From the IMG/VR virus record IMGVR_UViG_2531839440_000003, positions 1-41,145 of that record: a stretch of 41,145 nucleotides of DNA, one strand, 5' to 3'. This document shows positions 35,394-37,427 of this stretch, in pieces. The notes beneath the pieces were generated by a model. It saw only the letters and a program-made list of their open reading frames with translations, searched no databases and was not told where the DNA came from. How positions within the stretch are numbered: the first letter of the stretch is position 1; every line of letters starts with the position of its first letter. This DNA is from a virus. Lineage: Duplodnaviria; Heunggongvirae; Uroviricota; Caudoviricetes. A program made the position numbers and the translations under genes.

Positions 35394-36468
35394 CAGTCAG
35401 TTTTATCGCCCCGGCCTTCCGCAACTTATTTCTATGATCCGGAGCGATTTATTAACCCGCTTTGAGCAGGATACGCTGCTTCGTCGTATGGATGCGGAAG
35501 TGTATGCCCGTGTACAGGCTGCAGCCGTACACACGTTGTACGGGTATATCGATTATCTTGCCAGAAATCTGTTGCCGGACATGTGTGATGAAGACTGGTT
35601 GTACCGGCACGCCAGAATCAAACGCTGCCTGCGAAAAGATGCGGTGACAGCCCGGGGATTTGTGCGCTGGGATGGCGTAGAGGGAACACCTGTATTGCCA
35701 GCGGGAACGCAGATCCAGCGTGATGATCAGGTGACCTTCACCACGACGGCGACGGTGACCGCAGCCGATGGTCTTCTCCGGGTGCCTGTTGTGGCAGATG
35801 AACCGGGGGCGGCGGGGAATACGGATGATGGTATTGCCATGCAACTGGGAACACCCGTCAGTGGTCTGCCGTCCACAGGGTACGCGGACACCATTACAGA
35901 CGGTGAAGATATTGAAAATCTGGAAATATGGCGTGCCCGCGTTATGGAACGTTATTACTACATTCCACAGGGGGGCGCAGACCCTGATTATGTTATCTGG
36001 GCGAAAGAAGTTCAGGGTATTAACCGTGCATGGACTTTCAGACACTGGAAAGGCATTGGAACGGTTGGCGTGATGGTGGCGACAAACGATCCGGAACATC
36101 CGGCTCCGGATGAAAGCGTCATTAATGCAGTCAGAGAACACATTCTTCCTCTGACACCGGTTGCCGGAAGTGGATTGTATGTATTCGGTGCCACAGAAAA
36201 AGTCATCCCGATGACGATTGCATTATCGAAAGACACACCGCAGATCAGGACTGCAATAAAAGCAGAGCTGAATGCACTGATGTTACGGGATGGTGTGCCA
36301 GAGGGGCGTATGTATCTGTCCAGAATCAGTGAGGCCATCAGTTTGTCTGCTGGTGAAGTGGCCCACCGGTTAATCGTCCCTTCATCGGATATTGACCTGG
36401 GGGAGACCGAGCTTCCGGTGCTCGGCGAGATCACCTGGCAGGCTTATGACCCGGCAAGGAGTAAATAA
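35386..36468 (+). CDS. Baseplate J-like protein
   Basis: 360 aa; typical size and position. Confidence 0.8.
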   Translation: MADSQFYRPGLPQLISMIRSDLLTRFEQDTLLRRMDAEVYARVQAAAVHTLYGYIDYLARNLLPDMCDEDWLYRHARIKRCLRKDAVTARGFVRWDGVEGTPVLPAGTQIQRDDQVTFTTTATVTAADGLLRVPVVADEPGAAGNTDDGIAMQLGTPVSGLPSTGYADTITDGEDIENLEIWRARVMERYYYIPQGGADPDYVIWAKEVQGINRAWTFRHWKGIGTVGVMVATNDPEHPAPDESVINAVREHILPLTPVAGSGLYVFGATEKVIPMTIALSKDTPQIRTAIKAELNALMLRDGVPEGRMYLSRISEAISLSAGEVAHRLIVPSSDIDLGETELPVLGEITWQAYDPARSK

Positions 36469-37427
36469 TGGATTCGTTACAGGATGATTATACAAAGCTG
36501 CTGTACGGACTGATGCCGCCGGGGCCTGCATGGAGCGATACCGACGGCGTGCTTGATGGTCTGGCACCATCGCTTGTACGTGTTCATCAGCGGACTGATG
36601 AACTGATGGCTGAAATCGATCCTGGTCAGTCAACAGAGCTGATTGAACGTTATGAAGAATTGTATGGTTTACCTGACACCTGCTCTCCTGTTGGAGCCCA
36701 GACATTACGCCAGCGTCAGCAACGGCTGGAAGCAAAAGCCAATGTGGCTGGTGGCATAAATGAGCAGTTCTTCCTGGGGCAGCTTGAGGCGCTGGGATAT
36801 ACCGGCGTGACGATCGAACAGTTCCAGCACCTGGATGCAAGCCCCGATCCGGAATGGGGTGATCGCTGGCGTTATTTCTGGCGTGTGACGTTGCCGGTGG
36901 ATGCCGGTGCTCAGTGGCAGACATGTTCGGACACCTGTAACACACCGATCCGGACGTGGGGTGATACGGTTGCGGAGTGCGTGATTAATAAATTATGTCC
37001 GTCGCATACTGTTGTCCTTTTTGCATATCCGGATGAGTCTGGTGAAGGGCAACAAGCCGCCCTGACTATAAACAGCCTCTCCTTTCAGGCCGGACACAAG
37101 ACGACTGAGCCATTAGCGATTAATCATACAGGTGTTCATTTTGCGGTTGTTCCGGCACTGACAGGTAAGCCGCTGACAATTAACCGGATTAACTTTTATG
37201 CCGCCCGTCCGATGGCAGAACCACTGGTACTCAGCAGGGCGCAATTGCACTCAGGTCTGCCGACAACGGACCCCATGACCATGAACAGCGCACAGTTGCA
37301 GACGGGATACAGGACCCGCTCCCCCGTACCGGTTAACAGTATGCAGTTGCAGACAGCCAGCAGAACCCGTGAACCGTTATTGATTAATCACCCGGGACTG
37401 CATTTTGCTGTGGTCACGTCCGAATGA
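36468..37427 (+). CDS. Tail protein (DUF2313/Mu gp48-like) with repeat-containing C-terminal extension
   Basis: 319 aa; C-terminus carries degenerate repeats (EPLAINHTGVHFAVVP ... EPLLINHPGLHFAVVT). Confidence 0.55.
   Translation: MDSLQDDYTKLLYGLMPPGPAWSDTDGVLDGLAPSLVRVHQRTDELMAEIDPGQSTELIERYEELYGLPDTCSPVGAQTLRQRQQRLEAKANVAGGINEQFFLGQLEALGYTGVTIEQFQHLDASPDPEWGDRWRYFWRVTLPVDAGAQWQTCSDTCNTPIRTWGDTVAECVINKLCPSHTVVLFAYPDESGEGQQAALTINSLSFQAGHKTTEPLAINHTGVHFAVVPALTGKPLTINRINFYAARPMAEPLVLSRAQLHSGLPTTDPMTMNSAQLQTGYRTRSPVPVNSMQLQTASRTREPLLINHPGLHFAVVTSE

What the first reader, a model, noticed from the sequence alone, without database searches (positions are those of the whole stretch)
36468..37427. 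DUF2313-like baseplate protein with a repeat-bearing C-terminal extension
The protein is about 130 aa longer than I expect for this family (roughly 190 aa in e14 YmfQ, from memory), and the extension contains degenerate direct repeats at protein and DNA level (about 37108..37154 versus 37371..37417). A repeat-rich extension of a distal baseplate protein could be a host-range or adhesion determinant.
Basis: seen in the sequence. Interest (0 to 1): 0.4.

Follow-up and report, generated by a model that had tools for sequence, protein, structure and literature searches.

The report
Baseplate protein with repeat tether
A prophage baseplate protein ends in seven copies of a 17-residue motif that, wherever it occurs, is encoded beside one lectin-like protein, so it is probably a tether holding an extra sugar-binding adhesin on the tail.

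Summary
Window 36468..37427 encodes a 319-aa Mu gp48/YmfQ baseplate wedge protein. The family domain ends near residue 187, and about 110 of 118 homologue clusters are 187-211 aa long.

The extra 132 residues are more than one repeat pair. They form seven tandem units of about 17 aa, with consensus E-P-L-x-[IV]-N-x-x-Q-L-Q-[ST]-G-x-x-T-x, arranged 2+5.

The array matches no Pfam family and no solved chain by sequence. It is under purifying selection (dN/dS 0.24-0.40). It also ends gp48 proteins of other lineages and truncated tail-fibre stubs.

In every locus examined where the flanking DNA could be read, the array lies in the same tail cluster as one gene family. In all but three it lies directly upstream: the gene starts 17-30 nt downstream at a conserved TTG. 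That gene is window 37451..38500 (349 aa, phrog_8291). Its confident model is a two-domain concanavalin-A-like sandwich.

My best reading (0.55) is that the array is a portable tether that recruits this lectin-like protein to each wedge, beside the ordinary fibre. "Rope" domains in other phages are the nearest functional precedent. Binding itself was not shown. I rate it a new variant of a known kind, of moderate interest.

The parts
35386..36468 (+). gp47 / Baseplate_J wedge subunit, the upstream neighbour; its stop overlaps the gp48 start codon
   Evidence: PF04865 E=6.9e-53; ORF list
36468..37028 (+). gp48/YmfQ (DUF2313) core domain, aa 1-187: the third wedge subunit, one copy per wedge, which carries the docking loop for the regular fibre
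   Evidence: PF10076 at 86.2 bits, aa 13-187. phrog_203 baseplate wedge subunit, E=2.3e-72. Mu gp48 9ki1, E=1.1e-7. Stoichiometry and docking loop from PMC11915804.
37029..37055 (+). Short acidic and glycine-rich linker (PDESGEGQQ, aa 188-196)
   Evidence: Translation; pLDDT below 50
37056..37166 (+). Repeat units R1 (aa 197-213) and R2 (aa 214-233). R2 is of the array-closing type, EPLAINHTGVHFAVV, followed by the linker PALTG.
   Evidence: Repeat parsing; DNA repeat D1 at 37106-37150; the 2+5 layout recurs in lineages L002 and L025
37167..37424 (+). Repeat units R3-R7 (aa 234-319), the canonical five-unit module. It ends in the closing unit EPLLINHPGLHFAVVTSE, the second copy of the DNA repeat. 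The stop codon is at 37425-37427.
   Evidence: The same five-unit module ends P0002, P0004, P0005, P0006 and P0008. In L002 it is identical from R3 onward.
37428..37450 (+). 23-nt spacer with GGAG at 37440-37443, ahead of a conserved TTG start
   Evidence: Sequence. TTG start throughout, with 22-30 nt spacing in 24 of 26 related IMG/VR loci.
37451..38500 (+). 349-aa two-domain concanavalin-A-like (lectin/glucanase fold) protein, phrog_8291: the proposed cargo of the tether
38531..38807 (+). 5' part of the regular tail-fibre gene (N-terminal domain starting MHRIDT, which attaches to the baseplate), cut by IS1
   Evidence: phrog_6859 tail fiber E=2.2e-55. Collinear with the intact 369-aa gene in L001. 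In L003 this fibre follows a short gp48 directly.
38808..39575 (-). IS1 insertion (768 bp; InsA/InsB ORFs on the minus strand) with a 9-bp target duplication, CGGATATCG
   Evidence: blastn against the uninterrupted locus L001; ORFs at 38823-39520 on the minus strand
39576..40417 (+). 3' part of the interrupted tail-fibre gene
   Evidence: phrog_6859 E=8.3e-98; 99.9% identity to L001
40396..40962 (+). Tail fibre assembly chaperone (Tfa). The true start is probably the internal ATG near 40432.
   Evidence: PF02413 Caudo_TAP E=1.2e-20; the annotated homologue in L001 is 176 aa

Best explanation
The gene encodes a working gp48-type wedge subunit, present once in each of the six wedges. A portable C-terminal module has been grafted onto it.

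The module is a 2+5 array of a 17-residue motif. Each unit has a strand-like hydrophobic pattern, P-L-x-I/V-N, followed by L-Q-S/T-G. Each block closes with a variant unit ending xHFAVV.

I propose that the array is an extended, largely unfolded tether that takes up structure only when bound. It would then recruit the product of the next gene, a two-domain concanavalin-A-like protein, to the baseplate periphery. The virion would so carry an accessory glycan-binding adhesin, or possibly a glycan-cleaving protein, beside the regular fibre, which docks on the gp48 core.

The pair [array + lectin-like gene] behaves as a mobile cassette. The same pair is plugged onto other gp48 lineages and onto tail-fibre stubs, where it replaces the usual [fibre tip + Tfa] cassette.

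Shown here: the repeat architecture, the selection on it, its rarity, the fold of the partner, and the gene linkage.

Inferred: physical binding, the mode of binding (perhaps strand complementation, as in rope domains), stoichiometry, and sugar binding.
For: 1. Linkage. The repeat-ending gene stops 22-30 nt before the TTG start of a homologue of window 37451..38500 in the window, L002, L005, L008, L011, L012 and L013. The same holds in 24 of 26 IMG/VR loci and in E. albertii; in Raoultella the gap is 17 nt. The two IMG/VR exceptions still have a gp48 with 2+5 repeats in the same operon, in the order gp48L, fibre, Tfa, lectin-like gene.

2. Portability. The N-terminal anchors are unrelated. They are three or more gp48 lineages (window against L002 N-domain dN about 1.1), a gp48 with an Ig-like insert (P0004), PF08400 fibre stubs (P0005, P0006) and a PF12571 stub (P0008).

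3. Insertion. A close relative with a short gp48 (196 aa, 92% identical) runs straight into the same fibre type. The inserted unit is therefore exactly [array + lectin-like gene].

4. Selection. dN/dS is 0.40 for the array (window against L005) and 0.24 for R1-R2 (window against L002). It is 0.07 for the core domain and 0.16 for the lectin-like gene. The motif positions P2, L3, I/V5, N6, L10, Q11 and G/A13 are conserved across 53 units.

5. Structure. The array has no confident autonomous fold: pLDDT is 40-55, with the caveat of a shallow alignment. The partner is a confident ConA-like double sandwich. Its fold resembles phage proteins of about 350 aa, one of them named a virion structural protein.

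6. Location. gp48/gpI is peripheral and its C-terminal region is already known as a fibre attachment point (Mu: PMC11915804; P2 preprint 10.64898/2026.09.14.750843).

7. Precedent. Rope domains thread through incomplete beta-sandwich subunits 'like beads on a string' in Bas63 and GP4 (PMC12609058).

8. Copy number varies from 4 to 7, as a tether or stalk would tolerate.
Against: No physical interaction was tested.

Gene adjacency would equally fit a chaperone-client pair.

The partner shows no clear pattern of a conserved N-terminus and a variable C-terminus, which is typical of receptor-binding proteins.

No cultured phage carries the cassette, so its presence in virions is unproven.

The low pLDDT may only reflect having four or five sequences over the array.

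No sequence or top-ranked fold match links the system to the known rope/whisker proteins.

In this window the regular fibre gene is broken by IS1, so this copy of the prophage may be defective.
Confidence: 0.55

Rival explanations
1. The array is itself the receptor-binding or fibre-forming element, and the 349-aa protein is its assembly chaperone. This would parallel Tfa or T4 gp38/gp57, and the chaperone might stay attached.
For: The partner gene sits immediately downstream, where fibre chaperones are normally encoded. In fibre stubs the array takes the place of the distal fibre tip, after the conserved KAPLxSPxFTGxPT junction. The array evolves faster than the core, with dN/dS 0.40 against 0.07.
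Against: The partner is twice the size of Tfa proteins and has no Caudo_TAP similarity.

Its fold is a lectin/CBM/lyase-type jelly roll, and it resembles phage proteins of about 350 aa, one of them named a virion structural protein.

Partners 98% identical serve arrays only about 36% identical. Tip-specific chaperones normally co-vary with their tips.

A low-complexity 17-aa motif array with 4-7 copies is an unlikely specific receptor binder.
Confidence: 0.2
2. The array is a trimeric fibrous shaft similar to the adenovirus triple beta-spiral. Alternatively it is one strand of a heterotrimeric rope formed with two chains of another protein, as proposed for P2 gpI with gpH. Either way it would be a stalk rather than a multi-site dock.
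For: The motif pattern xPLxVxxxxLxxxx resembles adenovirus shaft units (Ad5 shaft sequence verified against 3izo_F). The array occurs at the end of trimeric fibre stubs. A monomer model has low confidence, as expected for obligate oligomeric fibres. The P2 gpI C-terminus is modelled between two gpH chains.
Against: hhalign of the array profile against the Ad5 shaft gives probability 1.3%. There is no Adeno_shaft or other Pfam hit and no PDB sequence hit.

gp48 is present once per wedge, so a homotrimer is geometrically implausible.

No other ORF in the window carries the motif to supply further strands.
Confidence: 0.15
3. The extension is a non-functional fossil: an in-frame fusion with the remnant of a neighbouring gene. 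RefSeq's 'pseudogene, missing C-terminus' call would then be right.
For: PGAP annotates only codons 1-195 and marks the gene a pseudogene in NZ_CP068155. The prophage is decaying in some hosts, with IS1 in the fibre gene here and the sheath-to-tape-measure genes missing in L001.
Against: The ORF is intact in that very record, and PGAP annotates it as a whole 324-aa protein elsewhere.

dN/dS is below 1.

The 2+5 layout is conserved in three divergent gp48 lineages.

The module recurs on unrelated anchors with the same neighbour.
Confidence: 0.05

Closest known systems
Phage Mu gp48 / P2 gpI / e14 YmfQ (PF10076, DUF2313), the third subunit of the baseplate wedge
   Same: The N-terminal 187 residues are a bona fide member. 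They have the same operon position after Baseplate_J and the same Cys-rich region that aligns with the Mu fibre-docking loop. In this family the C-terminal region is the known peripheral attachment point for fibres.
   Different: The protein carries 132 extra C-terminal residues of tandem repeats. About 95% of homologue clusters lack them, as do Mu, P2 and e14. An extra gene sits between gp48 and the fibre gene.
Rope protein of podophage GP4 and the rope domain of the Bas63 collar protein, with their Fiber-1 / whisker partners
   Same: An extended chain attached to a structural anchor recruits separately encoded beta-sandwich subunits. In one case the rope is a fused domain and in the other an independent protein. 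The number of sites varies: two whisker dimers against five Fiber-1 dimers (PMC12609058).
   Different: No sequence similarity was found, and the known systems did not appear among the listed fold matches. The location is the baseplate wedge or a fibre tip rather than the neck collar. The partner is a 349-aa double ConA-like protein rather than a small whisker. Threading or strand completion is not shown here.
Separately encoded adhesins docked on a fibre or baseplate anchor (T2/S16 gp38 on gp37; lactococcal BppU-BppL; Mu gp50 / P2 gpG remaining on fibre tips) - from general knowledge
   Same: An anchor gene is followed by the gene for the receptor-binding unit. The pair moves as a cassette and replaces the covalent fibre tip.
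   Different: The docking element here is a tandem linear-motif array rather than a folded trimeric tip. The same dock is used on a monomeric wedge subunit and on trimeric fibres.
Adenovirus / reovirus triple beta-spiral shaft repeats
   Same: Short repeats of 15-17 aa with P-L-x-V/I and a downstream hydrophobic position. They occur in adhesion fibres.
   Different: Profile comparison is not significant, at probability 1.3%. The period is 17 rather than 15 residues. The array occurs on a protein present as a single copy per wedge.

Membership tests
Phage_Mu_Gp48 / YmfQ / DUF2313 (PF10076) | Profile match above the curated threshold | tested here: met
   86.2 bits against a cut-off of 37.4, aa 13-187; phrog_203 E=2.3e-72
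Phage_Mu_Gp48 / YmfQ / DUF2313 (PF10076) | Similarity to the structurally solved wedge subunit Mu gp48 | tested here: met
   9ki1_a E=1.1e-7, query aa 14-189 against chain aa 12-177 of 180
Phage_Mu_Gp48 / YmfQ / DUF2313 (PF10076) | Operon position: gp44-gp45-gp46-gp47(Baseplate_J)-gp48, followed by the fibre gene | tested here: met
   ORFs 33386-36468 and Pfam hits. One extra gene lies before the fibre gene.
Phage_Mu_Gp48 / YmfQ / DUF2313 (PF10076) | Single-domain protein of about 180-210 aa | tested here: not met
   319 aa. About 110 of 118 homologue clusters are 187-211 aa. This is a member with an added module.
Rope domain / rope protein systems (GP4, Bas63) | Extended chain co-encoded with a beta-sandwich partner that it recruits | tested here: inconclusive
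   Adjacency and co-inheritance are shown. The partner is a beta-sandwich. The array has no confident fold of its own. Binding was not tested.
Rope domain / rope protein systems (GP4, Bas63) | Homology of the rope or the partner to GP4 rope/Fiber-1 or Bas63 collar/whisker | tested here: not met
Rope domain / rope protein systems (GP4, Bas63) | Rope strand completes an incomplete sandwich of the partner | not testable with these tools
   This needs a multimer model or a structure.
Triple beta-spiral fibre shaft (adenovirus type) | Profile similarity to shaft repeats | tested here: not met
   hhalign probability 1.3% against Ad5 shaft residues verified on 3izo_F; no Adeno_shaft Pfam hit at E up to 10
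Triple beta-spiral fibre shaft (adenovirus type) | Homotrimeric assembly | not testable with these tools
   gp48 is present once per wedge (PMC11915804), which argues against a homotrimer. Oligomeric state was not computed.
Tail fibre assembly chaperone (Caudo_TAP, PF02413), for the downstream 349-aa gene | Profile match or Tfa-like size | tested here: not met
   No Pfam hit at E up to 0.1. The protein is 349 aa against about 180 aa for Tfa. A true Tfa lies at 40396-40962.
Concanavalin A-like lectin/glucanase fold, for the downstream 349-aa protein | Jelly-roll beta-sandwich fold | tested here: met
Concanavalin A-like lectin/glucanase fold, for the downstream 349-aa protein | Sugar-binding or catalytic residues | not tested
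   Sequence identity to all structural matches is 4-16%, so no site could be mapped.

The most novel reading that the evidence does not exclude
The 17-residue array may be a previously undescribed, portable 'rope-and-bead' docking system. Each unit or pair of units would thread into a groove of one lectin-like subunit by strand complementation. A single wedge protein or fibre stub would then string several glycan-binding subunits into a multivalent brush. Valency would be tuned by expansion and contraction of the repeats (4-7 copies seen). The dock could be moved between baseplate and fibre anchors by recombination at the repeats, which would make it a natural plug-and-play interface for retargeting contractile tails and tailocins.
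Probability: 0.2. Interest if true: 0.65.

Novelty: new variant of a known kind. Interest (0 to 1): 0.5.

Why it matters
Host range in tailed phages and tailocins depends on how receptor-binding units are attached to the tail. This finding defines a compact module of about 90-130 aa. The module has no Pfam family, and in at least one RefSeq record it is left unannotated and the gene is marked a pseudogene. Nature has moved it, together with one lectin-fold gene, between a baseplate wedge subunit and at least two kinds of fibre stub.

If the array is the dock, it offers three things:
- a defined sequence handle for adding a second adhesin to Mu- or P2-type baseplates;
- a natural case in which one dock works on both monomeric and trimeric anchors;
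- a correction to routine annotation.

The scope is modest. The cassette is confined to Escherichia (about 1% of complete E. coli genomes, many of them named as ETEC strains, plus E. albertii) and one Raoultella. It is known only from prophages. The general principle of a separate adhesin on an anchor is established.

Tried and rejected
- Tandem Repeats Finder found no DNA tandem array, because the units are too diverged. The array shows up only at protein level.
- The word-indexed protein search with the extension alone found a single partial hit. The exhaustive HMMER search was needed to find the fibre-stub carriers.
- tblastn of the extension and of the 349-aa protein against 50,697 phage records found nothing useful.
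- A profile of the five-unit module against PDB sequences and Pfam found nothing.
- The AF2 model of the full gp48L was poor, with mean pLDDT 59 and the array at 40-55. I did not use it for fold searching.
- The adenovirus triple beta-spiral lead, recalled from memory, was checked after verifying the Ad5 sequence on 3izo_F. hhalign gave probability 1.3%, so I rejected it as a homology claim.
- The search for related loci with the module alignment failed because no stretch was conserved enough.
- The scan of GTDB species representatives with the partner profile found only E. albertii.
- I looked for an RBP-like gradient of conserved N-terminus to variable C-terminus in the partner. Conservation is roughly uniform, with a few variable patches.
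- I rejected the pseudogene or fossil reading, because the ORF is intact and under purifying selection.
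Full report
**Observation**

Window 36468..37427 (+) is a single ATG ORF of 319 aa. Its start codon overlaps the stop of the upstream Baseplate_J gene by one base.

Pfam places Phage_Mu_Gp48 (PF10076) on aa 13-187, at 86.2 bits against a cut-off of 37.4. PHROGs calls the protein a baseplate wedge subunit. The solved Mu gp48 chain (9ki1, 180 aa) aligns to aa 14-189. Residues 188-319 therefore lie beyond the end of the whole known protein.

Among 118 homologue clusters, almost all are 187-211 aa. Only P0009, P0010 and P0011 (319-321 aa) and P0057 (324 aa) share the extension. Two other long entries are N-terminal fusions.

Positions 37106-37150 and 37370-37414 match at 33 of 45 bases. 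The best window in 300 codon shuffles and 300 base shuffles averaged 25 matches and never exceeded 30. At protein level the best 12-mer self-match scores 53, against a shuffle maximum of 36.

**Anatomy of the extension**

The pair is the most similar part of a seven-unit tandem array at aa 197-319:
- R1 AALTINSLSFQAGHKTT
- R2 EPLAINHTGVHFAVVPALTG
- R3 KPLTINRINFYAARPMA
- R4 EPLVLSRAQLHSGLPTT
- R5 DPMTMNSAQLQTGYRTR
- R6 SPVPVNSMQLQTASRTR
- R7 EPLLINHPGLHFAVVTSE

Over 53 units from nine proteins the consensus is E-P-L-[VT]-[IV]-N-[RSH]-[AM]-Q-L-Q-[ST]-G-[HY]-x-T-x. Every array ends with a variant unit, EPLxINxxGxxFAVV plus two or three residues.

In the gp48 proteins this closing variant occurs twice, as R2 and R7, which gives a 2+5 layout. 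The layout is conserved in three gp48 lineages whose core domains are highly diverged: the window, L002 and L025.

The motif chain occurs nowhere else in the six frames of the window. Tandem Repeats Finder sees nothing at DNA level.

**Is the extension a real, selected coding region?**

It is. dN/dS is 0.40 for the array between the window and L005. It is 0.24 for R1-R2 between the window and L002. The core domain gives 0.07 and the downstream gene 0.16.

From R3 onward the window and L002 are identical, although their core domains are saturated with changes. This marks a recombination joint inside the array.

RefSeq marks the gene a pseudogene "missing C-terminus" in NZ_CP068155 and annotates only 195 codons. 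The ORF there is intact, and PGAP annotates a whole 324-aa protein in NZ_CP086627. The pseudogene call is an artefact of matching to short references.

**Where else the array occurs**

An exhaustive HMMER search with the extension alone found it at the C-terminus of several other proteins:
- P0004, a gp48 with an Ig-like insert;
- P0002, P0005 and P0006, short fibre "stubs" with Phage_fiber_2 repeats; P0005 and P0006 also have a PF08400 N-terminal domain;
- P0008, a fibre stub with a PF12571 N-terminal domain.

In these stubs the array follows the conserved KAPLxSPxFTGxPT junction, where a fibre tip normally begins. The array profile matches no Pfam family and no PDB chain by sequence.

**The linkage**

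In every context the array-bearing gene is followed by a homologue of window 37451..38500 (349 aa). The gap is 22-30 nt in all but one locus and the start codon is a conserved TTG. This holds for:
- the window, L002, L005, L008, L011, L012 and L013;
- Raoultella, where the array-bearing ORF was not called by the source and the gap is 17 nt;
- E. albertii;
- 24 of 26 IMG/VR loci retrieved with the 349-aa protein.

The two IMG/VR exceptions have the order gp48 with 2+5 repeats, fibre, Tfa, then the 349-aa gene.

The most divergent partner (P0153, 40% identity) is preceded by a free-standing 64-aa ORF with two or three degenerate units.

A close relative with a short gp48 (196 aa, 92% identical) runs directly into the same fibre type. 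The inserted unit is therefore exactly [array + 349-aa gene].

Copy number ranges from 4 to 7. Partners 98% identical occur with arrays only about 36% identical. Any recognition must therefore rest on the conserved motif positions.

**The partner**

The 349-aa protein is phrog_8291, of unknown function, with no Pfam hit. Its family is small: 27 clusters, essentially all Escherichia, all named hypothetical.

Against predicted viral structures, the whole two-domain fold matches phage proteins of about 350 aa at TM 0.6-0.67. One of them is named a virion structural protein. Conservation along the family is fairly even, with variable patches at 151-175 and 301-349.

**The array's own structure**

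The AF2 model of gp48L is poor, with mean pLDDT 59. The array scores 40-55 with almost no secondary structure. This fits a segment that folds only on a partner, but only four or five sequences cover that region.

The motif looks like an adenovirus shaft unit. After I verified the Ad5 shaft sequence on 3izo_F, hhalign gave probability 1.3%.

**Context from the literature**

In Mu each of the six wedges holds one gp46, two gp47 and one gp48. The fibre docks on a gp48 loop, residues 133-155 (PMC11915804).

In P2 the flexible C-terminal region of gpI is proposed to tether the fibre in a rope-like arrangement (bioRxiv 10.64898/2026.09.14.750843).

In Bas63 and GP4, rope domains or rope proteins run through grooves of incomplete beta-sandwich whisker or Fiber-1 dimers "like beads on a string". 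There are two or five dimers per rope, and the rope is either fused to its anchor or free-standing (PMC12609058).

**Interpretation**

The best-supported reading (0.55) is that the extension is a portable tether. It would recruit the lectin-fold protein to each wedge, next to the regular fibre that docks on the gp48 core. On fibre stubs the same cassette replaces the tip-plus-chaperone cassette.

The rivals are:
- the array is the functional tip and the 349-aa protein its chaperone (0.20);
- the array is a trimeric or heterotrimeric shaft (0.15);
- the extension is a fossil fusion (0.05).

Binding, stoichiometry and sugar recognition are inferred, not shown.

**Provenance and scope**

The window is an E. 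coli prophage with an integrase and other early genes at the left end, an HK97-type head and a Mu-type contractile tail.

The cassette is present in 55-61 of 5,426 complete E. coli genomes, many of them named as ETEC strains. It is absent from 50,697 phage records. Among GTDB species representatives it occurs only in E. albertii.

In this window IS1 (38808-39575, with a 9-bp target duplication) interrupts the regular fibre gene.

**Verdict**

I rate it a new variant of a known kind, with interest 0.5.

Noticed in passing
window 38808-39575: An IS1 element (768 bp, InsA/InsB on the minus strand) with a 9-bp target duplication, CGGATATCG, splits the regular tail-fibre gene (38531-38807 and 39576-40417). 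The uninterrupted gene in NZ_CP068155 encodes 369 aa.
   Followed up: yes
L001 (NZ_CP068155.1) 8001-8960: PGAP annotates the intact 319-codon gp48L ORF as a 195-codon pseudogene 'missing C-terminus', which leaves the repeat array unannotated. The same architecture is annotated as an intact 324-aa protein in NZ_CP086627.
   Followed up: yes
window 37451-37453 and all related loci: The lectin-like gene starts with TTG in every locus examined. It lies 22-30 nt after the stop of the array gene in all but three of them, behind a GGAG. This suggests conserved, possibly attenuated or coupled, translation.
   Followed up: partly
L014 4794-4988 (E. coli OU349849.1): The most divergent homologue of the lectin-like protein (P0153, 40% identity) follows a free-standing 64-aa ORF with two or three degenerate repeat-like units (…LPLVIKHAVVSVGHENVLPVLTGRTWLTYLIQN), not a fused array. 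It sits after a PF08400 stub in a lambda-type gpJ tail cluster. This may be a stand-alone 'rope' version.
   Followed up: partly
L001 3354-3531: In NZ_CP068155 the related prophage runs from the major capsid gene almost directly to the DNA circularization gene. It lacks the head-completion, sheath, tube and tape-measure genes that are present in the window at about 25800-31982, so that copy is a deletion derivative.
   Followed up: no
L034, L033 and L035 (IMG/VR); L032: Repeat copy number differs between otherwise near-identical genes. The gp48-Ig type has 4 or 5 units or more, with identical adjacent units in L035. One gp48L has 2+4. This indicates ongoing expansion and contraction of the repeats.
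   Followed up: partly
H45/H96 (NZ_CP098223.1, about 2053607-2054050): One E. coli genome matches gp48 codons 1 to about 127 and then jumps to the last 66 nt of the lectin-like gene. This appears to be a deletion that removes the array and most of the partner gene.
   Followed up: no
window 40396-40962: The mechanically listed Tfa ORF (188 aa) probably starts at the internal ATG near 40432 (MELSNITRYYP…). The annotated homologue is 176 aa.
   Followed up: no
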